Part shown: positions 10,679 to 31,155 of the stretch, piece after piece
How positions within the stretch are numbered: the stretch's first letter is position 1
Layout of the letters: each line of letters starts with the position of its first letter
DNA from: Naegleria gruberi
Taxonomy: Eukaryota
DNA length: 64,000 nt
NCBI GenBank assembly: GCA_000004985.1
Contig: GG738848.1
Strand: one strand, 5' to 3'
Notes under the pieces: model-generated
What the model saw: the letters and a program-made list of their open reading frames with translations, nothing else
The model's database searches: none
Told to the model about the DNA's origin: nothing
Position numbers and translations under genes: made by a program

Positions 10679-12826
10679 TTATTGTTTCTTCTTATTGAGT
10701 CTTCTTCGCACTAGGAATCCTCTAACTTCTTTTTGGATAACAACTGCTGCATGATTTTTACAAGTATTAACAGCTATTGTGAGTGCATCTTGTGAGGCTA
10801 ATCTTTTAGAAGGAATTGGATCAAGCCCTCGGGAAAGAAGATCTATCAGAGGTTCAACAAAGTGGTGATTACACTTCTTTTTACCATGTTTGGCAATACG
10901 AGAAAAGTGATGGTTTTCTTTAAGGTTTTCTTCCCATAATTTTTCAAATTCTTCTTTCGATGTTATCTTGGCTTGAAGATTGATTTTCTTTTTGCTTAAA
11001 ACTTCGAATAATGAATAACAAATACTGTAAACATCAATAGTATTTGAAGCTGGTTGGCCTTCATTGTGTTCTGGAGGAAGATATCTCATAGTACCCCCAA
11101 TCACAGGATCATTAACCTTTACAGAGAACCCAAAATCAGCCAATCTAATTCCATCTTGTGATATTAAAATGTTTTGTGGTTTTACATCTGAATGAACGTA
11201 TCCAGTTGAATGAACAAGATGCATTGCATTCAGTAAATCAACTACTAATTTCAAATATTTGAGTGGTTTCATATATTTGACCTTCTTTCCTTTTGTACCA
11301 ACAAAACTAATTTGTTGAGTAAAAAGATCTCCATATTTACAATATTCCATTACTAGTACATTACAAAGAGATTTCTTGTTTGAATCATCTACTTCCTCAT
11401 AAGAAAAATAGTCCAACATTTGAATAATATTCTTATGTTTGAACAGTTTTAGACATTCCACTTCTCTATCAAAATCTCTTTGGGCTCCATCTTTGTATTT
11501 TTTAAGCACGCAAATCTCATTAGTTTCCTTTTTAGTGGCAAGAAAAACAATAGCTGAAGCGCCATCACTCAGTCTCGTTGTTACTTGATAGGAATCCTTC
11601 TTTTTCAAACCCTCCTCAAGATCCTTACTATTCTTCTTTGTAAACAGTGCTGTAAATGGTTTGATGAGAGCCTTCCAAGACCTTGATTTCTTCTCACTGG
11701 TGGATGTTGAACTACTTGACGAAGTTGTTGAGCTTGACGTACTGGTTTCTCTTTTACCAATAGAAAAAGCTCTTGTTGTTTTGGTTTTCTTTTGTGCTTG
11801 TCTTGGCATCAAATCTTCCTCGTCACTTTCTATTAATCCTAACCTTTCTCGGCATTTATCTAAAACTGAAATAATTTCTTCAATATTTGGTCTCTTTTCT
11901 GGTTCAACTGAAATACATTGCAGAGCAAGATTCAACAGTTTTTGAATAGTTACTTCAATAGTAATATCAATTGATGATAAATCAGTTAGAGCTCTTTGAG
12001 CCTTGTCTTTCACAAATTGTAATTCGTTTTTCCAATTTTGAGGGTCCAACATTTTGGCATCTATTTCTTCATTACACAAAATACTCAAAATCATAGTACC
12101 AAGCATATGAACATCGTTCGATGGTTCAAAATCATTATCACTTTCATATGCTTCCCTTGAGTAATAAGTGACATGTTCATCATTCAAAGTCTCCTTAATG
12201 GTTTCAATTCCAAAACTTGGAATTTGAAGTAAAACCTCTCCATCATACATTCCTTCAATACTCTTAGCAAGAATTAAAATGTTCTTTGGAAGAATGCTGT
12301 TGTGGCTAATGTTTGCATCGTGCAATTCTTGTACTGACATACACAAGTCAAAGAAAGTTCTTGTGACGAATTGGGCTTTGGATTTTTTAGTTTTAAGATA
12401 TTGGTTATTGTACATAATACTTTCCAAGCTGATGATTGGTCCATCCCAAGTTTGTAAAGTTGAAGTTTTGATGTTACATTTAGCATCTTTTGCTGAAGTA
12501 AAGTACAAATTTCTCGTCAATCCTCCGTTTGTAATTTTTTCGAAAACACCATCAATTTGGATGTTGTATTGCGATCTTAAACTTGCTTGAATATACCTTA
12601 AGAGTTTTTCCTCTAGTTTGGCACTCTTTTCAATCCTGGAATCCAATATAGATTGAGAAAAAACAAAAACATTTTTCGAAATCTTATCATCACTAAAAAC
12701 CGGAACATGAACATTGGTTGGATAGGAATCTTGATAGATAAGATCTAAACCAATTTTATCATCGCCCATCAACAATTTCTGAATCATTACTTCATAGGAT
12801 TGTATAGTCCCATTATTTGATTCCAT
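10679..12826 (-). CDS. tandem pseudokinase-like / Ser-Thr protein kinase with C-terminal IQ motif, 715 aa
   Basis: It is a single ORF. The C-terminal half is a canonical kinase: VLKKYK (VAIK-like), HSDVKPQNIL, DFG and the APE-like segment PPEH. The N-terminal half has a kinase-like subdomain XI remnant (LQCISVEPEKRPNIEEII) but lacks the catalytic motifs. The C-terminus ends with an IQ motif, VVIQKEVRGFLVRRRL. Confidence 0.7.
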   Translation of the reverse strand: MESNNGTIQSYEVMIQKLLMGDDKIGLDLIYQDSYPTNVHVPVFSDDKISKNVFVFSQSILDSRIEKSAKLEEKLLRYIQASLRSQYNIQIDGVFEKITNGGLTRNLYFTSAKDAKCNIKTSTLQTWDGPIISLESIMYNNQYLKTKKSKAQFVTRTFFDLCMSVQELHDANISHNSILPKNILILAKSIEGMYDGEVLLQIPSFGIETIKETLNDEHVTYYSREAYESDNDFEPSNDVHMLGTMILSILCNEEIDAKMLDPQNWKNELQFVKDKAQRALTDLSSIDITIEVTIQKLLNLALQCISVEPEKRPNIEEIISVLDKCRERLGLIESDEEDLMPRQAQKKTKTTRAFSIGKRETSTSSSTTSSSSSTSTSEKKSRSWKALIKPFTALFTKKNSKDLEEGLKKKDSYQVTTRLSDGASAIVFLATKKETNEICVLKKYKDGAQRDFDREVECLKLFKHKNIIQMLDYFSYEEVDDSNKKSLCNVLVMEYCKYGDLFTQQISFVGTKGKKVKYMKPLKYLKLVVDLLNAMHLVHSTGYVHSDVKPQNILISQDGIRLADFGFSVKVNDPVIGGTMRYLPPEHNEGQPASNTIDVYSICYSLFEVLSKKKINLQAKITSKEEFEKLWEENLKENHHFSRIAKHGKKKCNHHFVEPLIDLLSRGLDPIPSKRLASQDALTIAVNTCKNHAAVVIQKEVRGFLVRRRLNKKKQ

Positions 12827-13295: not shown

Positions 13296-14720
13296 TTAAG
13301 CATGATTCTTTGTATGTAAACCCTCTTTTAAAATTGTCATTTTCACATCATCAAAAACATGTCTAACATTATCAGTATCAGTGGCACATGTAACATGAGT
13401 ATAAAGTCTATTGGGTTCACCTTCTCGTACTAATTTTTTAAATTTTCCAGTAATAAATTCAACTGATTCATCAAAATTATTTCCATCTCCTTTAAAATCG
13501 GGAAAATAGGTTGAAATTGGATTCTTTTGAATTTTCTTCTCAAATAAATCTCTCTTATTGAAAAATAACAGTATTGATGTATGTTTAAAGTATTGATTAT
13601 TGGCAATTTCTTCAAAAATAGCAAGTGATTCTTGCATTCTATTGGTTTTATCATCTTCATAACATGTTTGATCATATTCTGATAGAGCTACAACAAAAAG
13701 TAGACATGTTACACTCTCAAAACAATGTATCCATTTTTTACGTTCTATATTTGGTAATTATTATTATAATATAATGATGATGATGATGATGATGATGAAA
13801 TTATTATGATGATCAATTGTGATCAATTATGCACATGTGAATGTTTATAATTATTGATAATATTATGATCAAATATTAAATATTAAATATTATTGAATAA
13901 TATATGATTAAATATTCAATTTTTTTCAATAATATAATTAACATACCATTTCTTTGACCTCCAACATCTAATAATCTGAAATATAAATTATCAATTTCAA
14001 ATTTACATTCCACAATACCCGTCGTTTTAACTCTACATTTTACAATATCTTCATAGGTTGGTATATATTCACGAGCACTTATACGTTCAATATTTTCAAA
14101 GAAATATTCAGCAGAATCAAATATTTGAAATTCATTTCTTCTATCATAGGCCTATATATATAAAAAAATGTGTGTAAATAGTTAATAGTTTGTGTAATAT
14201 ATTGTAAAGTATTTAAAGTATTGTAAATAGTATTGTAAACTTACAGTCCTTATACCAGAATCATTCCATAATTTTTTAATTGCATCTCCAATATGAGGAT
14301 TAGTATCAAATTCTCTAGCAGCAATTGCTAAATTTGGATCAAGTGATTTAATTTTCTCAGCAATTTTCATATTTTCTTCATTATCAAATTTAATTTGAAA
14401 TCGTGAAGTTCCATCAATTAATCTTAAACAATTTAAAATGACATTTCCTCTGACAAGTGGCACATATGATTCAACTTCCTCACTTGTAAACCCATTCAAA
14501 TGAATAATTTTAATTTGTTCTAGATAATAAATTAAATTAATTTTAGATGTAATATTAATTACATACTAAATAATGTTGACTTTCCCGATTCTCCACTTCC
14601 GAGAAGAAGTAATTTAATTTCCTTGTTTTGTAAGAGAGCTTGGTTTCGAATATCTTCAGCAATTTTCTTGTTTTTAGCTCTTGCTAGACTTGGATCTTCA
14701 TTCTTTCCACCACAAACCAT
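13296..14720 (-). CDS. heterotrimeric G protein alpha subunit, 4 exons, about 360 aa
   Basis: Exons are 14720..14567, 14519..14245, 14151..13947 and 13744..13296. Introns are 47, 93 and 202 nt (GTATGT/GTAAGT...AG), and the frame is conserved across all junctions. The protein carries the P-loop LLLLGSGESGKST, KIIH, switch II DVGGQRNERKKWIHCFE, NKRDLFEKK and TCATDT. Confidence 0.8.
13775..13797. repeat. (ATG)n microsatellite inside G-alpha intron 3
   Basis: The sequence atgatgatgatgatgatgatgatg is directly visible. Confidence 0.8.
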
Positions 14721-15258: not shown

Positions 15259-18200
15259 TTACTTCAATTCATCATCATTGGATGAAATATTATCAGCATT
15301 GGAAACAGCAACTATTGGAACATAATCAAGAATTGAAATTGCCTTCTTGTTCAATTCTGCAAACAAGTTTGCAACAGAAACGAGTGAAGAGTTTGATGAA
15401 AATAATTGTAACAAATCTTCACAAATATCCATTACAACTTTGTAGTCATTACAAAGAATTGAAAGGAATTTGTGGAAATTTTGTAAATTCTTTGGATTGA
15501 GAGGTTTTTCAAGTTTAACACGTTTAGCGACCTCTCTAAATAAGTTTGTACTTGTTGGAAGATATTGTCTGAGTGAGTTAAAATATTCCAAATCTCCTTT
15601 CTTTACACAGTTATTGTAAATTGGTTCAATCCAATCAGACATGGTGTTAATATCATAAGCATTGGCTATTATCAATGATTCCTCAAAGTCTGCATGATTT
15701 TGAATAAAGGTTCTTGCTTCCTTCAATCCAAGTTCAACAATTATTGGCAAATTTTGGAGCTTCTTCTTATTTGGGAGCTCATTGTAAAACTTCAGTTGAA
15801 GTTTGACGAGAGCAGCCAAGTTAGTTGACTTGACAGCAGTTTGACAACAATCTTCTTTGGCTAATGATGATGCTGCAGATTCAAAATTTTCACAAACAAT
15901 CTTCATAACATGTTCTAGTGGTACATGTTCATCTAAATGTGTAATTGATTGATTACTAGAGACACTTGTTGAAGAATCGTCCTTGTCTGTTAATCTCTTA
16001 TGAATTACCTTGATTCCTTTACATCCTCTATTATACAAATAGGTTCCATATTCTTTTAACATGTTAAATCTCAAGTAAACCATTGCTAACTTTTCATTTT
16101 GTTCAGGGAATTTAGTTTGCACGTACGATGATAAGGCCATTTTCAATTGGTTGTTATTATCATGGTCTGTGTTCTTGTTCTTTTTGAGAATAAGCTCAAA
16201 CTGTTCATTTTCTATTAAGATATCAAAAAGGAACGTAAGTTCTGAAAAGTCAGGAATGGAAACAAGCAACCTGACAATAAGTGAAAAGTCGTGATCATCT
16301 AAAATTTCTTGAATAATTGGTCCTTTGATTCTCTTTAAAATTGACTCTATCCCTTCAAAACTTGAAGACATATGATAACAATGATAAGCTCTAATAATAA
16401 TTTCAACTTTGCATTTCAAGTTCAAAATACCTCTGGATTTCTTCTTGTGTGGGCTATCGTCATTTGTTTCATCATCAGAGTCTATTAATTTGATTAATTG
16501 ACGAGCAATAGATGATGGATCTTTTGCAATATTGGCAAATTCTGCAAATTCATCCATGGTGCATTTGACTAGATCGAATTGTTTTTGTGACTCTTTGAGA
16601 GTTTTGATTGGCTTACTCTTAAGTTGTTGGTTAAATTGTTTAAAGAATGTTGAAGTTTGCACACTTGCTGTATAGGAGCTAGAAAAATCAAAGCTTGAAA
16701 ATGAGCTACCAGAACTTGTTGATAATCTATCATCAAAATCTTCGGTACTTGAGGTACTGTCATTTGCTCCACTGTTATTATTATTGGCAGATGAGGATTG
16801 GAAATAATCTTCAATTAGAATTTCACCTCCTCCCTCTTCTTGATTTTTGAATATGGAAACATCCTCGTTTCTATAATACTCAACATAGGTAGAATAGAGA
16901 TAATTAGCACAAACTTTAGAAGCTCTATCGCTATCAAGATTACGAAGTTGAATGAAGGAAGAACAAACTTTAAGCTTTTCCTTTCCAAACATCATTAGCA
17001 AGAGTTTTAAAACTTCAAAATCATCCTTTGTAATAACACTATCATAACTTAATTGGAGAATTCTTCCAATTTTGTGATTGAGGGCAATAACTTTGAGGAA
17101 GTGTTTGGAACCTTTCATCTTATAACCAAAAGATAAAAGAGACATCTTATCTAATATTTGTTGAATATCGTCAAATTCATCAATATTGAGGACCATATCT
17201 TTAAGAGCAGAATAAATATTTGATGGAAGCGTTTTGGCAGCAAAGCTATTATTTCTCTGATCAGAATCTTGATACATTGTCTTGATTTGTAATTCATAAC
17301 CTTTTGCCAATGTAAGAGCAACTTCAATAATTTGTAAAATATTACTATTATATGAATAGTAATTAGCAAGCTTCTTTGCTTCTTTGTACTGTTCTTTTAG
17401 TAATAAATTATCAATGACCTTATCTAATAATTCATCCATATTGTTGATATTGGTTGGTATATTTGGTTGGTTTGATCGTTTTGAGGAATTTTGAGTATTT
17501 TCAATAAATCTGGCCTCTAATGGAGCTAAAACTATTGAGGCGCCACTTGTAAAAAAGTTATCTGCAGAGTTGGAAAGTAAAACAATACTCTGTACAAGAT
17601 AGTCAATATCTTTTTGATTTCTACATGGAGTTGGATTTGTTTTTGTCATTTCAATACTACCTCTCTTTTTGGTTATATTATAGGTTCCTTCATACCAAGA
17701 CAGTGCAAGATTCAACAAATGTAAAACGCTGGTAGAAGAATATTCTGATTGGTAGAGTATTGCTTGTTCTAAGAAGAATTTAGCACCACTCTCTTGCGGA
17801 TATCTGTGCTTGATGAAAAGATCATTCACTTTTGAATAGGCAGTAATGATATCTGTGGTATTAGTAACATAGAGTGAACGAACTTTTTGAATCTTGTAAA
17901 GAGCTTGAGAGTATGTAACCTTATCATTTGAATAGGTAATCTTCTTTCTATACATGACAATAACTTGTCTTGCCTCTTTGAAACAGTTATTTTCTATCAG
18001 AGATTCAATAAAATGATTTGGATTTCCTGTAAAGACATTGAGGTGATCGATTTCTTGTACTTCTCCAGACTTGAAAACTCTTTCAAATAATGAATTTACA
18101 CTGTACATATTTTCAAACTCATTGGTAACATCAACAATTAACGAGAATTGTGTCTGATGAAGTAACTGGAGATAATTGGTACGTTTGTATTGCGTGTTCA

Positions 18201-21200
18201 AAGACCTGGATAGTTGTTGTGCTAGAGCTGTTGAAGTGGAGACAACCCATGTTAAATCGCCAAAGTTAAAGTTTGGAGCAACCCCACTATTCAAATCCTT
18301 TACAACTTTAACAAATGTCTTCATTTCATCTGTTGCCTTTCCAATATTTTCATGAACATATGATTCATAGAATTGTAAGAATGAAATAATTGGATTATTA
18401 ACATCAAACAATTCAAATGATTGTGTAATATAGTGAACACCGCTTTGTTTTTCATCTTTCAGGAAATTATTTGAACAAAAATCTTGAATATATCTATCAA
18501 TACTTTCTGTCAACTTTCTCATATTTTGTTTCTTAATAGATATGGTTTCATTCTTTTTCATTTCGGTATTTGTTAACTTTTGCTTTAAAGATTGCAAATA
18601 ACATTTCATACAAGTGAAAAGTTCAGACATTGTATAATCTTTAGGGAGATAACAAGTGGCAACTATTGCAAGTAAAGGTTCACTAAGAGCAAGTGATCTA
18701 TTTAACAAATACTCAACAACTTCATCATTTTTCAAGTTGAATTCTTCAGCTCTCATAATTTCTAGGAATGCCTTGAATATAATATCATTTTCTTGATTTA
18801 AATCCGTAAGAATATCGTTATTATTATTCTCTATTGATAACTTAGTTTGAATATGGTCACGTTTTGATTTCATATCTCTCAGAACAATAATTAAAAATTG
18901 TTTGATGACATCAGGCATGAATTCTTCTACAATACTCATAACTGTCTCAATAGGAGCATTAATATCTTGAGCATGATAAAGGAATGAAATCCATTGTCCT
19001 TTCTTGGCAGTAGATTTTAATTGATTTACAAATGGTGGTAGACCATGTAATTCAGAAAACACAGATAAGAGCTTCCAAGGAGAAACATAAATCTTGTGTC
19101 CACTATTTCTCATACCATCTAAAATTTGAACTTGTGATGGATCAGTGGAATTCTTAGAGTTATACTCCTTCTCTAAAAATTCTTTGACTGAAATGTCAAC
19201 AATTAGCATGCTTTCAGTTGCTTCTTCCAACATTTTAAGAATTTTGAATTGAGGATGGGATAAATAATGTTCGTAAACGGAACTTGTAGATTTTGATACG
19301 GAAATTTGTAAAAATTCTTCGACGAGCTTCTTAGAAGGACTATCAACATGTTGTGGTTGATCAACTTGAGCAACAAAAGATGGATGAAAATCAAAAATTC
19401 TTCTAGCTACTTTTGTTTCAACAAGGATGACCTTGGCATACTTATCAGAATACTCTTCAAAATTGCAAAGGTCTATGAACATTTTACATGAGGAAGTGAT
19501 AGCTTGATTAGAAAAATTATTCAATGCAATTTCTCTGACTCTATCACAAAGATTCAATTGGGATTCCTTGTCCATATAATTTGAAAGGGGAAGTTGTTCG
19601 TTCTTTCCTCCATACAGATAAGGTGAGTAAGCATCATCTATTAAATCTTTCAATTCATTATCCTTGGTAGAATTGACTTCACTGAGTAACTCCTTGTAAG
19701 CTTCCAAAGGTCTTTGATTCATCAAATAGTAGGAAATATCAAGAACCTCCTTGATACTTGATTCATATGTCGAAAAGTTGAATAAGTCATCTCTATTGTT
19801 AATCTTAAATTGAGTAGGGGTTAATAAATTAAACTCTCCTTGATTAATTTCGTTACCTTCGTCCATCATTAAAATTTCATCAATAGACATATCAATATGT
19901 GTATGTTTAAGCATATCAAATAGAGAAATATCTTTTTGGCATGAAACAATGTTACCTCTTGCAATTTCGTTATTGCAAAGGTTGATAGTTTCATTTTCAG
20001 ATTGACTCTCCTTTGATAGGGTTGGGTTTTCAGAATGCTTTGTACTTTTTTCATTAAAAAGTGCAGAATGGAAGGTTGGATATGGCTGAAGCGCTTTGGA
20101 TAAGTAAGAACTGTTCAAGTAATGCTCACTTGTAATTGGTTCTTCCAAAGATTCATGAAGAGTTTTTGGAGAATACATTTGTGTGGAGAGAGCCATGATT
20201 GGATTTTCATTAAGAATGCTATTCAAATTAATCTTTTGATTATCATTATTTCTAAGTTTAGATTGGGCGTTAATGAATGATAAATTAAACATATCCTTCT
20301 TATTGGAGAGTAAGAACATATTTAACCATGATGGTCTCTTATCTTCAGTGAAGGATTTATCTAATGCATCCCAAATATTAAACTTGTCAATATACCTAAA
20401 GCAAATACTAGGAATATTTTTCTCAATACAGAAAGAAATAAAGTCTTTGTGGAATTTGCTCATTTCTCCCACTGGATGTAAATAAGTTGTGTTGATTGGG
20501 TTGGAAACAATATCCTTATCAGAATCGAACATATTGGTAGGATCACATTCAATAGACAAAGTTTCTATTAAATTAGATGGAATATCATTTGAAAAAAGTT
20601 GATAGGTTGCACAAAATCTTTGCAACAAGGAAATAAAATCCTTTGTATCTTCTCTAATGAATATTCCTCTGAATGCAAGACTATTCAACAATAGCTCTTT
20701 CATCATTGGACTACAAAATTGTAATTGTTCTCTGACAATGTTGATAACTTCTTGACAACTTTCAACAACCTGTTGCATCTTGGAAGAGTAACCTTCAGGA
20801 ACATAGAGAATATCTCCATCTTCTGTTTGATAACATTTCACACTTTCATTCTTCTTTTTCAAGTTTCCGTAGTATTTAATTGCACTCTTTGACCATCTCA
20901 CCAGTCCAACAAAATCATGATGAGCAATACAAAAGGCAAGCTTTGATTTGTTGGACTCATTATCGTGATAATCTTTTTCAAGTAGAATTCTCTCTCTTGT
21001 ATGTTTATCCCATCTCAATAACCAACTCAATTTAGATACAAAGTAAGAGGACTTTGACTTTGATAGTGCTAAAATTTTCTTGTTAGTGCTAGATATTGAA
21101 GCACTTCTCATTCTTGATTGAATAGACACTTTACGTTTAAAAACTAGGCTATCTGAACTATCTGAAGATACTGGTGATTCAACAACAACACTACTTGTAA

Positions 21201-24200
21201 TGTGGTGGAGTGGCGTAAGTTGTGCATCATCAGAAATATCTCCAATAACAATGTTTTTTTCCACTTGATCAAAATCTTCATCTGTGAAAGGATTATACTG
21301 TCCGTATGGAAGCACCTTTTCAAGTACTTTTTGAATGGATGTATCAGGATAAAGTTCTTCCAAAAGTTGAAGAAATTCTATTACATCTTGTTCCTCTTCT
21401 GAAAGCTTCTTCATTCTCTTCAATTCCTTAATTAAATGGTTTCTAATATTCTTGTCGATCGTATTAAAAGCCAATTCTCTTAAATGTTCTGTAACATCTT
21501 CTCCCAAGTTTTCTAGCATTTTAATAGCAAGATTATATTCACCAGAAACTAAATGTTCATATATTACAATAAAGGAAAGTTGTTGAAAGCTTTCAAAATC
21601 TTCAATTTCGAAAAAGTTGTTAGTATTGTCTTCATCCTCACTATCACATTCAGCTGCAGACTTGTGCTTTACGGTTCTATTTTTCAAGAATGAGTAACCA
21701 AGCGAAACAAGACCCTTAGTCAAACAATCAACAATTATGGACTTATTTTCCATATTCTTCCACTTGTGATAAAGTTCTTCATTGCCTCTCATTAAAATTT
21801 TGTCAAACATTTCCATTTCATTCTTTTCGTCTGCATCAGAAATTTCATTCTCCTCGGCATCATAATTATACATATCTTCTTCATTGTTAATCGATACACC
21901 TGTCTTCATTTCGGAACCGAAGAAGGATAAATCATTAAAATTATCACCTCCAGAAAAAGACTTTGTTAAAATTAAGTTAAATCCTGTTGTATAAATTATC
22001 TAACTTACCAAATCCAGGTCTATTCTCTTCTCTGAACGAAGAGTTTCACTTCTCTTGCTTTGAGAATTGAATGAACTAAGTAAATCTGCTGCTATTGGTT
22101 CATTTACTTCTTCTTCCTCTTGATTATTATATATCAAATATGATCTCAATAGAGAAATGATACTAGATAAAAGCAAAACTTCTTCTGGTTTTGACAAAAC
22201 TTGCTTGGAACTCATGATATCCTCAATGATTGAAATAGTGTTAGAAGATGGATTATTAATAATGTCATTTGAAGCACTTGTAATTTCATCAATTTCAGAA
22301 ATGGTTTGACTTTCCATAAACTTGTCTAACTTTTTGGCATTCTTAATCTCCAACTTTTTAATCACAGAATCAGTACTTTCAATCTTAATAGGTACTCTCT
22401 TATCTTTGAATATAAATATAGAATCAAAAGTATTTGGCTCTTCTTCACCCAAATTATATTCATTCTTTGAACCCAGCTCTAAAATTCGTTTTTCAATCAA
22501 TGAGAGAATGTAAGATATGGCTGTAGTGATAGTATGAATTTTAAATTCACTATCTTTTGAAAATTTAGTGTCTTGAATAAACTTGGCAATTATATAGCAA
22601 ACATTTAACTCTTGCTCCGGATCAAGATGTTGCAAAGTATCTTGTACAACAGCAAGTTCTCTATTTCTCAAACCAAGCTCTATAGCATGAACTGCTAATG
22701 ATTTTCTGTCCCAGCCATTAAGATCACATAACCTCTCAGCTAATCTTTGTCTTTCGTACTTGATAAGATTATTCAAAAGAATGCTCTTGTTGGTGTTTAC
22801 ATTAATAAAGAAAACTCCATGTTTGTGGGCATCCTCTGTTATGTAAAAGCAATGTACATCTGAGCAGTAAATTTGGGAAATGAAATTACCCTTTTCCAAA
22901 CATATTGCTGTGGTTTTTCCTGAAAGCATGTCATAAACTTGAAGGAGTCTTATATCAGCCTCCAACAAGTCAAAAATGATGTAGCACTTGTTATTTGTTA
23001 TGATATAGTCATGAATTTTAGAATTCTTTTCAACTGCATGAATAACAGTAATGCCTTCATCAATGTGGCTGATATTTTCATCTTTCCTAGGAGAAAGCAT
23101 AAAGTTGTGACTTGATGTTCTCGAAATTAAAGAGTCTTTTCTCGAAAATGACTCTAAATTACTATCTAAACTACCAATTGATCCTCTTTTGATTAACAGT
23201 GAATCCCTCATTATGGTTTCCTTTCGTTGTTTGTTTGCAACTACAAATGGATAATTGCTCTTTGTATCTTTCTCAGTACCAAAATCATCACCTGAATCGA
23301 TGAGAACACTAGTAGATCTCTTTTGAGGTTCTGTATTATCAAACCAGTGAGATTGATAAAAATTCTCTGAGGTGTAACAGAAAGGTAAAAGTGATTCTAT
23401 TGGCTCAATAGTATCCGTTTTCTTTTCACTTTGATTGAGCAGTTCATTGAAGGAAAGTTCTTCGTCCTCCTCATCACCTTCAATATCTTCCTCTTCTTCT
23501 TCATCGCCTTCAGTATCATCTTCTTCATCAAAATCTTCTTCTGTTCGTTGAACATGCTCTTCTTCTTTAACATTTTCCGTTTTTAAATCCAAATCTATAA
23601 TATATACATCATTGTCACATGTTGCTGTTAAAAGTAATCCGTTATTCGATAATTTAAAGTTACATAAATTTACAATATCACAATTTACAAATCCAACTTT
23701 CTTCTTTTTAGAGATATCCCAAATATCAACTTTGTTTAGCATTTCAGAAGGGCTGGAAGAAAGTGAGCAAAAAAGAAACTGTTGATATGCCAATAATTCT
23801 CTATATGTATGATCCTTTGGAGCTTGTATTGTAAAATTACTACAAATTTGCAATAAAAAGTTCTGTAGAGAAACTTCACAAACATGATTGTTATCGAATA
23901 ATATTAAAAAGTGACGATCTTCAAGAATTGGAAGTATTGCTTTCATGGAGACCTCTTCTCCAAAATTAGCATTCTTGATGGAGTTTGTAATTTTTGAGAA
24001 TGATATTGTGAATTTTTTGACAATCCATGTTACTCTTTCATTCTTGAATTTAAATATTGTTTCCGAATCGTCTGTTAAGAAATTAATTAAAATTTTCTCA
24101 TTCCTTTCTGATGGACTAAACGTCTCATCTTGGTCACTTTTAGAAAAGAATATAATTTCCAAAGTATCATCCCTAGCAACAAGACAATAACACGAGAATT

Positions 24201-24829: not shown

Positions 24830-25189
24830 TTATTGTTCTTTAACCAAATCGATGGCCAAATAAAACTTCTTCTCGTTCATAAAGGCAATACCAATTGCTT
24901 CTCTTTCACAATCGGCGCAAGTCAGATATTTAATTTCCTGTGCAGTACCACTCTTGTTTTTCGTAAATCCAATATTTTCAAAATCAAACATGTCTTTTAA
25001 TTGATACCATCTGTTGTATGATTTGGTATCGGTAATATCCTTCACAGGTAATTCAAAGGTTGTATCCTCCACGAGCAATCCCATATTTTCCCTGAGAATT
25101 TTAGAATTGCAATGTGGGCAATTGATGACTGTTGGATTTCTAATTATTGATGTAACAATTTCCGAGGATGATGAAGCTGCTGATTCCAT
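24830..25189 (-). CDS. RABIF: Mss4/RABIF-like Rab guanine-nucleotide exchange/chaperone zinc-binding protein, 119 aa
   Basis: There are CxxC pairs (CPHC...CADC). The region WYQLKDMFDFENIGFTKN...KYLTCADCEREAIGIAFMNEKKFYLAIDLV aligns closely with the Mss4 core. Confidence 0.8.
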   Translation of the reverse strand: MESAASSSSEIVTSIIRNPTVINCPHCNSKILRENMGLLVEDTTFELPVKDITDTKSYNRWYQLKDMFDFENIGFTKNKSGTAQEIKYLTCADCEREAIGIAFMNEKKFYLAIDLVKEQ

Positions 25190-25334: not shown

Positions 25335-27308
25335 TTATTCATTTCCCAAAATATGGGTTTTAAATTTCCATGAAAGATTTGGTTTAGTTTGATTGTGTGC
25401 AAACATTGGATAAATAGTGGATGTAATAATTTCCATTAATTGTTTGAATTGAATAGTATCAAGTGCATTCATGTAAAATGTGAATATTCTTTTTGGATTA
25501 TGATTATCTTTTGCTTTAAATTTAGATTCAATAAAAGAAAGAGTTTTCAAAACTTTCTGTGAAATTTGTACTTCCTTGTCGAGAAGATACCTTTGTGGAT
25601 TATTGTTAGGGTTAAGTTGACTCGAAGTATTGGTGAAAAAGTTATTTTGATCAGGAACTGGGTATTGATTAAAATCTGGAAACAAGTCAAAAAGTGATTT
25701 GTCATCGCTAATGGTTTCACTCAAAATATCAATCTTTGTGAAAATGAGGAAAATTGGTGAATATTTGAGTGGTCCATTACATTGTTCTTCAAATAAGTTA
25801 ATACTTTCTATCATCCTATTTGAAAAATCATCTTCATAACAAGTCTTTCTAAAGTCAATCAGTGAAGTGGTATATAAAACGCCTGTCAATCCAGCATAAA
25901 TATTATTATACTTCTTTCTTTCTGTTCTGGCACCACCAACATCATAAACTCTAAATGGCATACCTAGATAATCATAATCTAGACATGTAATACCTGTTGT
26001 TTTACAACGACAACCAATAATGTCTTCAACTGATGGCTCATATTCGCTCAGTTTCTTAAACATTCGTTTCACAGCGCTCGTATCACCATGATCCCTTAAA
26101 TAATAATCCATGCCATCTGTCATTGAGTCTGTTAACGCATAACGATTTAAAACCTTTCTAACATCTGTATCCTCCCACATGGAAACAACAAATTCCTTCT
26201 GTGGTAATTTAGAAATATCAAAAAGTGTATATCTAGATTGTAATGAAGTAACTCTAGAATCAAACTCTTTAAACTTTTCGTATAAAGTTTCATCTAACAT
26301 GAAACGATTTTCTCTCGTAACCTTAGTTGTACCATTCTTAATAGCATCAACTTCATTCAAATAAAGTGAAACTCCTAATGAAAAACTTTGTAGTAAATTG
26401 GTAATAATATACATTCTCATTCTCTCAATTTCAGACCTATTGAAACCTTCTTGAAAAACAAGTCTGAATTGTCTGAAAAGTGTAGTTTTACCAGAACCTA
26501 AAGTGCCTGAAAGCATTAGAGTATAAACAGAGGGTGATTCGTATTTGGATTTCTGAACTTTTTTAGTTTTGGCAACATGTTGTGCGTTGGACGACGTTGC
26601 CTTATTCATTTCCTTTCTATGGGATGGAGCATTGGAACTAAAATGGCCATTGGTTGTAACATTCATATTCTTGGATATATGATTCGAGAGATGATAAAGT
26701 TGATTGTTGGTATTGGCAGGAGATACGTCATGGATATCTATTGTTGTTGTTGTTGAACTAGAGGATTGTTGGTGATGATTCACTGCTGTTGACAATGTTG
26801 AAGGAGTTGTGGTGGGGGTGGTGGTGGATAAATTACTCATCATCATTGGAGTGGTTGTTGTGGTTGACAAATTACTTGTTACTGATGGAGATGGACTTGT
26901 GAGAGATGATGATGCAGTTGTTGTCTCATTGCTGTTAACAACTTCATCTCCACTCATGTACAAGGGTATTGGTTTATCGAATGGAACTGTAGAAAGTGGA
27001 ATGATTTGATTTTGTCCAATGGTTGACTTTAACTTTTTGTACAATTGTTGTGTAGCTGTTGTTTCAGAATCAGATTCATGTCCATTGTTTTCCTGTGTGG
27101 TTACAGTAGCTGTGGCTTGATTGGCCATTGGAATCATCATGTTTGGTTCTAATTTGTGTTGCTGCTGTTGACCAGGTGGAACATCTCCAAAGGCTTTCTT
27201 CTTTTTTAAATATCTATTCATCATTTCCTTCTTCATTCGTTCATGTTCATTACTTTCCCTGATAACACTTGTTATGGATGGAAAGAAGAATGAAAGTAGA
27301 CTTTCCAT
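25335..27308 (-). CDS. divergent G-alpha-like protein with long S/T-rich N-terminal extension, 657 aa
   Basis: It is a single ORF. The G-alpha core is recognisable: P-loop LSGTLGSGKTT, switch I RCKTTGI, switch II FRVYDVGGARTERKKY, and a helical-domain-like insert. The guanine-specificity motifs are degenerate: NKxD reads TKID and TCAT reads MNAL. The catalytic Gln of DVGGQ is replaced by Ala. Confidence 0.75.
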   Translation of the reverse strand: MESLLSFFFPSITSVIRESNEHERMKKEMMNRYLKKKKAFGDVPPGQQQQHKLEPNMMIPMANQATATVTTQENNGHESDSETTATQQLYKKLKSTIGQNQIIPLSTVPFDKPIPLYMSGDEVVNSNETTTASSSLTSPSPSVTSNLSTTTTTPMMMSNLSTTTPTTTPSTLSTAVNHHQQSSSSTTTTIDIHDVSPANTNNQLYHLSNHISKNMNVTTNGHFSSNAPSHRKEMNKATSSNAQHVAKTKKVQKSKYESPSVYTLMLSGTLGSGKTTLFRQFRLVFQEGFNRSEIERMRMYIITNLLQSFSLGVSLYLNEVDAIKNGTTKVTRENRFMLDETLYEKFKEFDSRVTSLQSRYTLFDISKLPQKEFVVSMWEDTDVRKVLNRYALTDSMTDGMDYYLRDHGDTSAVKRMFKKLSEYEPSVEDIIGCRCKTTGITCLDYDYLGMPFRVYDVGGARTERKKYNNIYAGLTGVLYTTSLIDFRKTCYEDDFSNRMIESINLFEEQCNGPLKYSPIFLIFTKIDILSETISDDKSLFDLFPDFNQYPVPDQNNFFTNTSSQLNPNNNPQRYLLDKEVQISQKVLKTLSFIESKFKAKDNHNPKRIFTFYMNALDTIQFKQLMEIITSTIYPMFAHNQTKPNLSWKFKTHILGNE

Positions 27309-30285: not shown

Positions 30286-31155
30286 TTACAAATCCTCATC
30301 CTCTTCAGGTATGTACAACAAGAAAGCGTCAAATTCCTTCTCCCAAACACCTATTGTCGAGAATAGTTGTGTTGTTTCTTGCGCATCAAATTGTTGTAAT
30401 TTCACAACAGGTTCAATTTTCATATTCAAATCATAAATCTTTCTAATTAAATATTCTACAGATTTCAATACATTGTAATTTACAATTGAGCTCAAGTCAA
30501 AATAACCAATATTTTTCTTTCTGTGGAATGTAATTTGTTTTGGTTTGACTTTTCTATCCTTTTCATCTACTTTTGTACCACAAAGCACCATTCTATTTGA
30601 TGATGTTAGATTTCTCTTATCCAATGCATAATTTCCCATCCTAAACCACAACGGAGTATTCTTATAAGTCATTCTAGAAAGAGAGTTAAACATGATCATG
30701 AAACAATCTGCATCTTTGAGGAATATACAATCATCACTTAATAATAAATCATTCACAAGTGATGGATTAATTTCAGTGTGTGGATCATTTGAACACAACT
30801 CCCAAATTTCCAAGTAAAAGAGTGGAATTAGGAATTTAACTGATGTAATAGTTGCATAATAATAATCATTCAACTGTAAATTCCTCACCATTTTAGATTG
30901 AAATCTACTTGTAAAAGTTGATTTACCAACATTACTATCACCTAATAAAACTAATTTAATTCTTCTCGGAGGTGAATTAATTTTATATTTCAAGCCTGGT
31001 AATGTTGATTCATTCATTCCGATAAAAGAATCATCAAGAATAATTTTGGTTAATTCTTCTTCTTCTTGTATATTATTTGGAGTAGAATTTGTAACCTCAT
31101 GTTTGCATCGTTTATTGTCGATTGTGGTGACAATATGTTGTTGATCTCTTTTCAT
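30286..31155 (-). CDS. Ran-like small GTPase paralog with degenerate G3/G4 motifs (likely pseudoGTPase), 289 aa
   Basis: It aligns along the full length of Ran. The P-loop is KLVLLGDSNVGKSTF. The region IMFNSLSRMTYKNTPLWFR matches Ran IMFDVTSRVTYKNVPNWHR. The segment VLCGTKVDEKDRKVKPKQITFHRKKNIGYFDLSSIVNYN is Ran-like, and the acidic tail EEDEDL resembles Ran DEDDDL. WDTAGQE is replaced by WELCSND, and NKVD by TKVD. There is a 60-aa N-terminal extension. Confidence 0.75.
   Translation of the reverse strand: MKRDQQHIVTTIDNKRCKHEVTNSTPNNIQEEEELTKIILDDSFIGMNESTLPGLKYKINSPPRRIKLVLLGDSNVGKSTFTSRFQSKMVRNLQLNDYYYATITSVKFLIPLFYLEIWELCSNDPHTEINPSLVNDLLLSDDCIFLKDADCFMIMFNSLSRMTYKNTPLWFRMGNYALDKRNLTSSNRMVLCGTKVDEKDRKVKPKQITFHRKKNIGYFDLSSIVNYNVLKSVEYLIRKIYDLNMKIEPVVKLQQFDAQETTQLFSTIGVWEKEFDAFLLYIPEEDEDL

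What the first reader, a model, noticed from the sequence alone, without database searches (positions are those of the whole stretch)
25335..27308. G-alpha-like protein with the switch II catalytic Gln replaced by Ala and degenerate guanine-specificity motifs
The 657-aa intact ORF contains a recognisable G-alpha core (P-loop GSGKTT, switch I RCKTTGI, RVYDVGGARTERKKY). DVGGQ reads DVGGA, NKxD reads TKID and TCAT reads MNAL. It also has a 250-aa S/T-rich N-terminal extension. This resembles the logic of plant extra-large G proteins, with a GTPase-impaired G-alpha fused to an extension. It sits 11 kb from a canonical G-alpha gene (13296..14720). The coding potential is intact, which argues for a functional pseudo- or slow GTPase rather than a pseudogene.
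Basis: partly seen in the sequence, partly recalled or inferred. Interest (0 to 1): 0.55.

Follow-up and report, generated by a model that had tools for sequence, protein, structure and literature searches.

The report
Hydrolysis-disabled G-alpha subunit of Naegleria
This is an intact, already annotated Naegleria gruberi gene for an unusual G-protein alpha subunit that keeps its nucleotide-binding residues but has lost two residues needed to hydrolyse GTP, a state conserved in N. fowleri and Willaertia, so it is probably a permanently "on" signalling protein rather than a dead gene.

Summary
ORF 25335..27308 (-) encodes a 657-aa protein with a full G-alpha domain (Pfam E=3e-69; AlphaFold core pLDDT 87, TM about 0.84 to solved G-alphas). 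It is identical to NCBI XP_002682131, [quoted passage not shown].

DVGGA, TKID and MNALD align with DVGGQ, NKxD and TCATD. All of these changes recur in orthologues from N. fowleri and Willaertia magna (43-51% core identity). They are absent from the other 147 of the 150 nearest G-alpha representatives.

"Degenerate guanine-specificity motifs" is overstated. Lys270, Asp272 and Ala326 are kept, and TKxD is the normal G4 motif of dynamin, SRP and Rac. Lys46, Arg178, Thr181 and DVGG are also kept, unlike plant XLG2.

Best reading: a nucleotide-binding but hydrolysis-dead G-alpha, likely RGS-insensitive and constitutively GTP-loaded. It would be the G-alpha counterpart of Rnd/RhoH, controlled through its amount or through its disordered Ser/Thr-rich linker.

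Deviant catalytic motifs in some Naegleria G-alphas are already noted in the literature, so this is a new member of a known kind. Interest is modest.

The parts
25335..27308 (-). Complete single-exon gene for the atypical G-alpha (657 aa plus stop), identical to N. gruberi XP_002682131
27192..27308 (-). aa 1-39: conserved N-terminal motif MESLLSFFFP followed by a basic helix. There is no Gly2 and no Cys, so no myristoylation or palmitoylation signal.
   Evidence: AlphaFold full-length model gives a helix at aa 2-39 with pLDDT 83-92. The motif is conserved in N. fowleri, and in W. magna when that gene is started at L001:9872. 57 of 62 comparators have an MG start or a Cys at residues 2-8.
26550..27191 (-). 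aa 40-253: low-complexity Ser/Thr-rich linker, predicted disordered and variable in length between species
   Evidence: S+T is 28%. pLDDT is below 50 for aa 44-240. The whole pre-core N-terminal region (aa 1-253 here) is 253, 156 and 165 aa in Ng, Nf and Wm, and is poorly conserved.
26958..26972 (-). aa 113-117, PIPLY: the only island inside the linker conserved in all three orthologues (PIP[IL][FY]); a candidate short docking motif
25413..26588 (-). aa 241-632: G-alpha domain, comprising a Ras-like domain and a helical domain
   Evidence: Pfam PF00503, E=3.4e-69. AlphaFold core model pLDDT 86.6, pTM 0.88. Foldseek TM-score 0.83-0.85, normalised to target length, against Gs, Gq, Gi and Gt structures.
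26481..26507 (-). aa 268-276: P-loop GTLGSGKTT. Leu270 is at Gαi1 Gly42 (Ras Gly12) and Gly271 is at Glu43. The GxxxxGK[ST] framework is kept.
   Evidence: Leu and Gly are present in all three orthologues. Comparators have Gly in 59 of 66, and Glu or Asp in 57 of 66.
25989..26009 (-). aa 434-440: switch I RCKTTGI. The cis arginine finger (Arg178 equivalent), the Mg-binding Thr181 and Thr182/Gly183 are kept (the RGS-contact role of Thr182/Gly183 is from general knowledge).
25908..25943 (-). aa 456-467: G3/switch II DVGGARTERKKY. Ala460 (codon 25929..25931, GCC) replaces the catalytic Gln204. Tyr467 replaces the switch II Trp211.
25728..25739 (-). aa 524-527: G4 motif TKID (Asn269 to Thr; Lys270 and Asp272 kept)
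   Evidence: Comparators have Asn in 66 of 66.
25458..25472 (-). aa 613-617: G5 motif MNALD (canonical TCATD; Ala326 kept)
25563..25667 (-). aa 548-582: lineage-specific low-complexity insertion between the G4 and G5 regions, variable in length among orthologues
   Evidence: low pLDDT around aa 560-570

Best explanation
The gene encodes the N. gruberi member of a small orthologous group of atypical G-alpha subunits, seen so far only in Naegleria and Willaertia. In this group the GTP-hydrolysis machinery has been selectively disabled while the nucleotide- and Mg-binding framework is preserved.

Shown:
- Two positions whose mutation disables GTP hydrolysis are substituted in all three orthologues. 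Gln204 (Ras Gln61) is Ala. Gly42 (Ras Gly12) is Leu.
- The G4 Asn is Thr.

Inferred:
- The protein still binds guanine nucleotide, exchanges it readily and cannot hydrolyse GTP.
- It is probably not a substrate for RGS GAPs.
- In the cell it is therefore constitutively GTP-loaded.
- Its output would be set by abundance, by location (through the conserved N-terminal hydrophobic/basic helix rather than lipid anchors), or by modification of the roughly 200-aa disordered Ser/Thr-rich linker, not by a GTPase cycle.

This is the same logic as the atypical small GTPases Rnd1-3 and RhoH.
For: Domain and fold. The protein has a full G-alpha domain and fold.

Substitutions. In all three orthologues Ala replaces Gln204, Leu replaces Gly42, Gly replaces Glu43 and Thr replaces Asn269. 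Comparators have Q in 64 of 66, G in 59 of 66 and N in 66 of 66.

Retained residues. The G1 framework with Lys46 and Ser/Thr47, Arg178, Thr181, Asp200, Gly202/203, Lys270, Asp272 and Ala326 are all kept. Of 40 positions that are at least 90% conserved in comparators, only 5 differ in all three orthologues.

Selection. The ORF is intact in three genera-level lineages plus a metagenome variant. That variant has 0 nonsynonymous and 2 synonymous differences in the core. Synonymous codon differences occur at the Ala and Leu codons. Synteny between N. gruberi and N. fowleri is partly conserved, with a Spatacsin_C gene downstream in both.

Published biochemistry:
- Gαi1 G42V and Q204L are GTPase-deficient (PMC3285607).
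- In N. fowleri Gα1 the deviant P-loop TAQ occupies the same three positions that read TLG or PLG here. It slows hydrolysis. Transplanted into Nf Gα2, it also speeds activation and abolishes RGS GAP action (PMC9283941).
- TKxD is a normal guanine-binding G4 motif in dynamin, SRP and Rac.
- Rnd and RhoH lack the Gly12 equivalent, RhoH also has an altered G3/switch II, and both are constitutively GTP-bound and controlled by expression and turnover (PMC13236570).
Against: - No biochemical or expression data exist for this protein or its orthologues. No paper cites its accessions.
- Gαi1 G42R keeps GTPase activity but cannot adopt the active conformation (PMC3285607). A bulky Leu at this position could likewise lock the switches in an inactive-like state rather than an "on" state.
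- The distal half of switch II is unusual: Trp211 to Tyr in Naegleria, Ile212 to Asn/Glu, Phe215 to Tyr and Glu216 to Ala/Pro. The GTP-induced conformational change and partner binding may therefore not be canonical.
- Hydrophobic replacement of the catalytic Gln does not by itself abolish hydrolysis in HAS-GTPases (PMC2848588).
Confidence: 0.5

Rival explanations
1. Nucleotide-independent scaffold or decoy (pseudoGTPase), as proposed for plant XLG2. The protein would be largely nucleotide-free in vivo and would act by binding Gβγ, RGS or other partners regardless of nucleotide state.
For: - The Leu at Gly42 is a bulky side chain next to the γ-phosphate site. The XLG2 study argues that only Gly avoids a steric clash there (10.1101/795088).
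- Loss of the Glu43 clasp and the Asn-to-Thr change in G4 could lower affinity.
- The clade sits on a long branch: 25.7% identity to other G-alphas versus 36% among them, and root-to-tip length 0.42-0.46 versus 0.354±0.03.
- It has a long N-terminal region and no lipid-anchor signals.
Against: - Every residue that XLG2 has lost for phosphate, Mg or base binding (Lys46, Arg178, Asp200-x-Gly-Gly, Ala326) is kept here in all three orthologues at 43-51% core identity. So are Thr181, Lys270 and Asp272. That pattern is hard to explain without selection for nucleotide binding.
- In H-Ras, any Gly12 substitution except Pro gives a constitutively active (hence still nucleotide-binding) protein (PMC3285607).
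- TKxD binds guanine normally in other families.
Confidence: 0.2
2. The protein is still a cycling switch. GTP would be hydrolysed by an alternative route, either with a catalytic residue supplied in trans by a dedicated GAP (as Rap1GAP does for Rap, which lacks Gln61; this example is from general knowledge) or by a HAS-GTPase-like cis mechanism.
For: - HAS-GTPases carry a hydrophobic residue at the Gln position and still hydrolyse GTP (PMC2848588).
- The cis arginine finger Arg178 and the RGS-contacting switch I residues Thr182 and Gly183 are kept.
- Heteroloboseans underwent an independent radiation of RGS proteins, and N. fowleri has a large 7TM-RGS family (PMC3971589; PMC9283941).
Against: - The simultaneous Gly42-to-Leu change is expected to obstruct the catalytic site. 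Gαi1 G42V is GTPase-deficient, and the Nf Gα1-type P-loop abolishes RGS GAP action.
- The HAS-GTPase hallmarks are absent by sequence: there is no K-loop motif GTT[RL]D in switch I, and the P-loop reads GTLGSGKT with no Asn for K+ coordination.
- No clade-specific acidic or amide residue appears next to Ala460. The sequence DVGGARTERKK otherwise matches the family consensus.
Confidence: 0.2
3. A decaying or recently inactivated paralogue (pseudogene in the making), or an assembly or annotation artefact.
For: It has a long branch and low-complexity insertions, and N. gruberi is reported to have about 44 G-alpha genes, so redundancy is plausible (PMC8584482).
Against: - A 657-codon intact ORF lies in about 30% GC DNA.
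- The same substitutions are found in independent assemblies of N. gruberi, a metagenome Naegleria, three N. fowleri assemblies and W. magna.
- The core is far better conserved than the linker.
- The metagenome variant has no nonsynonymous change in the core.
Confidence: 0.03

Closest known systems
Canonical heterotrimeric G-alpha subunits (Pfam PF00503), e.g. human Gαi1 and N. fowleri Gα7 (PDB 6ne6)
   Same: It has the same two-domain fold (TM about 0.84). It keeps the G1 framework, the cis arginine finger, Thr181, DVGG, Lys270/Asp272 and Ala326.
   Different: - Gln204 is Ala, Gly42 is Leu, Glu43 is Gly and Asn269 is Thr.
- There is no Gly2 or Cys lipidation signal.
- About 215 aa of disordered linker separate a conserved N-terminal helix from the core.
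- There is an extra insertion between G4 and G5.
N. fowleri Gα1 with the deviant P-loop 23-TAQ-25 (Bosch et al. 2022, PMC9283941)
   Same: It is from the same genus, and the deviation is at the same three P-loop positions (Ala41/Gly42/Glu43 equivalents). Experimentally this P-loop gives slow hydrolysis; transplanted into Nf Gα2 it also gives faster activation and loss of RGS GAP sensitivity.
   Different: The motif here reads TLG (PLG in Willaertia), with the bulkier Leu, and the catalytic Gln is also lost. The N. fowleri orthologue has Tyr at the switch II Trp, which that paper calls universally conserved in its 13 G-alphas. It may therefore not have been in that set (inference).
Engineered or oncogenic GTPase-deficient G-alpha mutants (Gαi1 Q204L, G42V; gsp/gip2-type)
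   Same: The substitutions are at exactly these two positions.
   Different: Here the substitutions are natural, combined, and fixed for the whole Naegleria-Willaertia divergence. The residues are Ala and Leu rather than Leu and Val, and their effect is untested.
Atypical small GTPases Rnd1-3 and RhoH
   Same: They share the logic. The Gly12-equivalent is substituted (in RhoH the G3/switch II too), nucleotide binding is retained, and the proteins are constitutively GTP-bound, GAP-insensitive and controlled by expression and turnover (PMC13236570).
   Different: They belong to a different GTPase family (Rho rather than G-alpha). The resemblance is analogy, not homology beyond the shared G domain.
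Plant extra-large G proteins (XLG1-3)
   Same: They are G-alpha homologues with a long N-terminal region and no catalytic Gln.
   Different: - XLG2 has also lost Lys46, Arg178, DVGG (which reads RLNP) and Ala326, and is proposed to be nucleotide-free.
- Its N-terminal half carries a Cys-rich region and an NLS.
- The Naegleria protein keeps all of those residues. Its N-terminal region has no Cys and no recognisable domain.
- The origin is independent: the clade groups apart from all other G-alpha representatives in the comparison set, whose labelled nearest members are heterolobosean.

Membership tests
Heterotrimeric G-protein alpha subunit (PF00503) | Significant match to the family profile over the whole domain | tested here: met
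   E=3.4e-69, 234 bits against a cutoff of 48.8; profile positions 3-333 of 333
Heterotrimeric G-protein alpha subunit (PF00503) | Ras-like domain with an inserted all-helical domain | tested here: met
   AlphaFold model pLDDT 86.6, pTM 0.88. Foldseek top hits are Gs, Gq, Gi and Gt with TM 0.83-0.85.
Heterotrimeric G-protein alpha subunit (PF00503) | G1 GxxxxGK[ST], switch I Arg finger plus Thr, G3 DxxG, G4 xKxD, G5 xxA | tested here: met
   GTLGSGKT, RCKTTGI, DVGG, TKID and NAL are conserved in the three orthologues
Heterotrimeric G-protein alpha subunit (PF00503) | Catalytic Gln in switch II (DVGGQ) and Gly at the Ras Gly12 position | tested here: not met
   Ala460 and Leu270. Comparators have Q in 64 of 66 and G in 59 of 66.
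Heterotrimeric G-protein alpha subunit (PF00503) | N-terminal myristoylation or palmitoylation signal (MG..., Cys near the N-terminus) | tested here: not met
   The protein starts MESLLSFFFP with no Cys in the first 253 aa. 57 of 62 comparators have an MG start or a Cys at residues 2-8.
Heterotrimeric G-protein alpha subunit (PF00503) | Binding of Gβγ, and receptor- or RGS-regulated GTPase cycle | not testable with these tools
   Only indirect evidence is available. Switch I is canonical. The distal part of switch II deviates: W211Y, I212N/E, F215Y and E216A/P.
Plant extra-large G proteins (XLG) | N-terminal half with a Cys-rich region and an NLS | tested here: not met
   There is no Cys in aa 1-253 and no Pfam domain there. 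XLG features are taken from 10.1101/795088.
Plant extra-large G proteins (XLG) | Loss of core nucleotide- and Mg-binding residues (Lys46, Arg178, DVGG, Ala326) | tested here: not met
   All are retained in all three orthologues
Constitutively GTP-bound atypical GTPases (Rnd/RhoH type; functional class, not a homology family) | Natural substitutions at the Gly12 and/or Gln61 equivalents, with nucleotide-binding motifs intact | tested here: met
   Leu270 and Ala460 are substituted, while G1, G3, G4 and G5 binding residues are kept. The class is as described in PMC13236570.
Constitutively GTP-bound atypical GTPases (Rnd/RhoH type; functional class, not a homology family) | No intrinsic or GAP-stimulated hydrolysis; GTP-bound in cells | not testable with these tools
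   This needs recombinant protein assays.
HAS-GTPases (hydrophobic residue in place of the catalytic Gln, K+-dependent hydrolysis) | Hydrophobic residue at the Gln61 position | tested here: met
   Ala460
HAS-GTPases (hydrophobic residue in place of the catalytic Gln, K+-dependent hydrolysis) | K-loop (GTT[RL]D in switch I) and a P-loop Asn for K+ coordination | tested here: not met
   Switch I reads RCKTTGI and the P-loop reads GTLGSGKT, with no Asn. The criteria are from PMC2848588.

The most novel reading that the evidence does not exclude
A natural, evolutionarily fixed "always-GTP" heterotrimeric G-alpha. It would be lipid-anchor-free and RGS-insensitive, and would have both classical oncogenic positions (Gly12 and Gln61 equivalents) substituted. 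It would signal by abundance, or by phosphorylation of a disordered Ser/Thr linker that separates a conserved N-terminal helix from the core. That would make it a Rnd/RhoH-like regulatory mode not yet demonstrated biochemically for any G-alpha.
Probability: 0.4. Interest if true: 0.5.

Novelty: new member of a known kind. Interest (0 to 1): 0.3.

Why it matters
- It would show that heterotrimeric G-alpha subunits, like Rho GTPases, have produced constitutively GTP-loaded members that are regulated outside the GTPase cycle.
- The route differs from that of plant XLGs, which lost nucleotide binding altogether.
- It would give a natural test case for how Gly42 and Gln204 substitutions behave together.
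- The orthologue in the pathogen N. fowleri may have been left out of the one biochemical survey of that organism's G-alphas, so it could be an unexamined signalling component.
- The practical impact is limited. The gene is already annotated, and deviant catalytic motifs in some Naegleria G-alphas have been noted before (PMC8584482, citing Anantharaman et al. 2011).

Tried and rejected
1. Word-indexed homologue searches. The full-length query was swamped by the low-complexity N-terminus. My core-only search used too strict an E-value cutoff and returned only the two Naegleria proteins. The alignment search returned 6 proteins. The exhaustive representative search supplied the comparison set.
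2. dN/dS against the near-identical metagenome copy. There are only 6 nucleotide differences, so the result (core 0 nonsynonymous, 2 synonymous) is consistent with constraint but weak. The N. gruberi to N. fowleri comparison is too diverged (about 50% aa identity) for a meaningful dS, so I did not attempt it.
3. Conserved linkage with a canonical G-alpha. W. magna also has a G-alpha 8 kb away, but it is only 30% identical to the N. gruberi neighbour. The N. gruberi neighbour is also not close to the atypical clade in the tree. I rejected this as meaningful.
4. Absence of an αN helix just before β1. Prolines occur there in all three orthologues, but several canonical heterolobosean G-alphas also have Pro-rich N-termini. 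I therefore did not use this as evidence. The full-length model instead predicts a confident helix at aa 1-39.
5. Anantharaman et al. 2011 (PMC3396428), the likely primary source on deviant Naegleria G-alphas, is not held.
6. A search for the accession numbers in the literature found nothing.
Full report
**1. The observation**

The minus-strand ORF 25335..27308 is intact and encodes 657 aa. The window is about 30% GC, where stop codons are frequent, so an ORF this long is not a chance event. Pfam G-alpha (PF00503) matches aa 241-632 end to end with E=3.4e-69. The best solved relatives are G-alpha subunits, led by N. fowleri Gα7, PDB 6ne6. The protein is 100% identical over its full length to XP_002682131/EFC49387, [quoted passage not shown]. 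The window is therefore N. gruberi DNA, and the gene is already modelled and named.

Three independent alignments put Ala460 opposite Gln204 and Thr524 opposite Asn269: to Nf Gα7, to human Gαi1 and to 66 other G-alphas. MNALD lies opposite TCATD, with the Ala kept. The neighbouring gene at 13296..14720 (-) is a four-exon canonical G-alpha with GSGESGKST, RVKTTGI, DVGGQRNERKKW, NKRD and TCATD.

**2.

- The P-loop reads G-T-L-G-S-G-K-T. Leu270 occupies Gαi1 Gly42, the equivalent of Ras Gly12. Gly271 occupies Glu43.
- The switch II Trp211 is Tyr in both Naegleria species. Ile212, Phe215 and Glu216 are also replaced.
- The protein starts MESLLSFFFP, with no Gly2 and no Cys anywhere in the first 253 aa. 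In contrast, 57 of 62 comparators have an MG start or a Cys at residues 2-8.
- A full-length AlphaFold model predicts a confident helix for aa 2-39 (pLDDT 83-92) and disorder for aa 44-240 (pLDDT below 50), followed by the folded core. The "extension" is therefore a conserved N-terminal helix tethered to the core by a Ser/Thr-rich linker (28% S+T).
- Inside the linker only PIP[IL][FY] is conserved.

**3. Relatives**

An exhaustive HMMER scan of 1.84 billion cluster representatives found only two close relatives. They are N. fowleri FDP41_009257 (about 51% core identity) and Willaertia magna ABK040_005128 (43%). The next hits drop from 290 to 145 bits and are canonical G-alphas.

Both orthologues carry DVGGA, [TP]-L-G in the P-loop, TKxD and x-A-[LT]-D. 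Among the 150 best representatives, only these three have Ala at the Gln position.

The Ala codon is GCC in N. gruberi and GCT in the other two. The Leu codon is TTA, TTG and TTA. The residues have therefore been held through synonymous change.

A metagenome contig carries a near-identical copy with 6 nucleotide differences. The core has 0 nonsynonymous and 2 synonymous differences.

Synteny between N. gruberi and N. fowleri is partly conserved, with the 2216/2220-aa Spatacsin_C gene downstream in both.

The W. magna gene model probably starts 43 codons too late. An in-frame upstream ATG gives MELLTQFFFPS, which matches the Naegleria N-termini.

In a neighbour-joining tree the three proteins form a clade on a long stem. 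Root-to-tip length is 0.42-0.46, against 0.354±0.03 for the others. They are 25.7% identical to other G-alphas, whereas those average 36% among themselves. The canonical G-alpha 11 kb away is not their close paralogue.

**4. What is kept and what is lost**

Of 40 positions that are at least 90% conserved in the 66 comparators, only five differ in all three orthologues. Two of these are Gln204 and Asn269. Gly42 is conserved in 59 of 66 comparators, just under that threshold.

The following are all kept:
- GxxxxGK[ST], including Lys46 and Ser/Thr47.
- The cis arginine finger Arg178.
- Thr181, Thr182 and Gly183.
- Asp200, Gly202 and Gly203.
- Lys270 and Asp272.
- Ala326.

The core model has pLDDT 86.6 and pTM 0.88, and superposes on Gs, Gq, Gi and Gt structures with TM 0.83-0.85. 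No alternative Gln or other polar residue lies near position 460, since DVGGARTERKK otherwise matches the family consensus.

**5. Mechanism**

The following is established for the family:
- Gαi1 Q204L and G42V are GTPase-deficient, whereas G42R keeps hydrolysis but cannot reach the active conformation (PMC3285607).
- In N. fowleri itself, the natural Gα1 P-loop TAQ occupies the same three positions that read TLG here. It slows hydrolysis; transplanted into Nf Gα2 it also speeds activation and abolishes RGS GAP action. Glu43 pairs with the arginine finger and is implicated in control of exchange (PMC9283941).
- TKxD is the ordinary G4 motif of dynamin, SRP, Rac, Roc and EngB (10.1101/2019.12.24.888222). 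It is a variant, not a degenerate motif.

From the pattern of selective loss of hydrolysis residues and strict retention of binding residues, I infer a protein with three properties:
- It binds nucleotide.
- It exchanges nucleotide readily.
- It cannot hydrolyse GTP.

It would therefore be constitutively GTP-loaded and probably RGS-insensitive. Its activity would be set by amount, by location through the N-terminal helix, or by modification of the linker. This is the logic of Rnd1-3 and RhoH (PMC13236570). I give this reading about 0.5.

**6. Rivals**

(a) An XLG-like nucleotide-free decoy, about 0.2. This is disfavoured because XLG2 has lost Lys46, Arg178, DVGG and Ala326 (10.1101/795088), and all of these are kept here.

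(b) A switch that still cycles by alternative catalysis, either a GAP residue supplied in trans or a HAS-GTPase-like mechanism (PMC2848588), about 0.2. Ala at the Gln position fits. The K-loop and the P-loop Asn are absent, and Leu42 should obstruct the site.

(c) A pseudogene or artefact, about 0.03. Conservation across independent assemblies argues against it.

A caveat applies to all readings. By analogy with G42R, Leu42 might lock the switches in an inactive-like state even with GTP bound.

**7. Comparison with known systems and novelty**

The protein is a member of the G-alpha family by profile, fold and G motifs. It fails the family's catalytic-Gln, Gly42 and lipidation features.

It is not an XLG. 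There is no Cys-rich region or NLS, the binding residues are retained, and the origin is independent.

A review states that N. gruberi has about 44 G-alphas. [quoted passage not shown] 2011 (PMC8584482). The primary paper is not held. The phenomenon is therefore known in outline.

Three points appear to be undescribed:
- This specific orthologous group.
- Its double Gly42/Gln204 substitution conserved into Willaertia.
- Its contrast with XLG-type decay.

No paper cites the accessions. The N. fowleri survey of 13 G-alphas calls the switch II Trp universally conserved, whereas the N. fowleri orthologue has Tyr. That orthologue may have been left out of the survey; this is an inference.

Verdict: a new member of a known kind, of modest interest (0.3).

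Noticed in passing
window 30286..31155 (-): A 289-aa ORF encodes a divergent Ran-like GTPase. Its best PDB hits are Ran/Gsp1 at E about 5e-24. The P-loop GDSNVGKST is kept. The place where Ran has WDTAGQE reads IWELCSND, so DxxGQ is lost. NKVD reads TKVD, the same Asn-to-Thr change as in the G-alpha 3 kb away. The ORF also has a roughly 60-aa N-terminal extension. It may be a second atypical or pseudo-GTPase in the same neighbourhood.
   Followed up: partly
window 24830..25189 (-): An Mss4 homologue (PF04421, E=8e-21; a Rab-binding factor by general knowledge) lies 145 bp downstream of the G-alpha stop codon. The same arrangement is seen on the metagenome contig L002. No Mss4 domain is on record for the genes called downstream in the N. 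fowleri loci.
   Followed up: partly
L001 9872..10000 (Willaertia magna JBEGDK010000030): The deposited W. magna gene model (KAL9656362, 599 aa) probably starts 43 codons too late. An in-frame upstream ATG gives MELLTQFFFPS..., which matches the conserved Naegleria N-terminus MESLLSFFFPS / MERLISFFFPA.
   Followed up: yes
L001 20048..21376 (-): W. magna also has a second G-alpha gene about 8 kb from its atypical G-alpha. It is only about 30% identical to the canonical G-alpha that neighbours the N. gruberi gene, so the linkage looks coincidental.
   Followed up: partly
window 13296..14720 (-): The canonical G-alpha has four exons and starts MVCGG rather than MG. It therefore has no Gly2 myristoylation site but does have a Cys3. 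It is flanked by a 715-aa protein kinase gene (10679..12826) and a 2216-aa Spatacsin_C-like gene (15259..21909), the latter syntenic with N. fowleri.
   Followed up: partly
P0080 and P0119 (representative search hits, not in the window): Two other G-alpha representatives lack the catalytic Gln. P0080 reads DVGGRK and comes from an unnamed Logan/ENA assembly. The tandem-domain chytrid protein P0119 (Kappamyces sp.) reads DVSGLSHHR in both halves. Natural loss of the Gln thus recurs sporadically in G-alphas.
   Followed up: no
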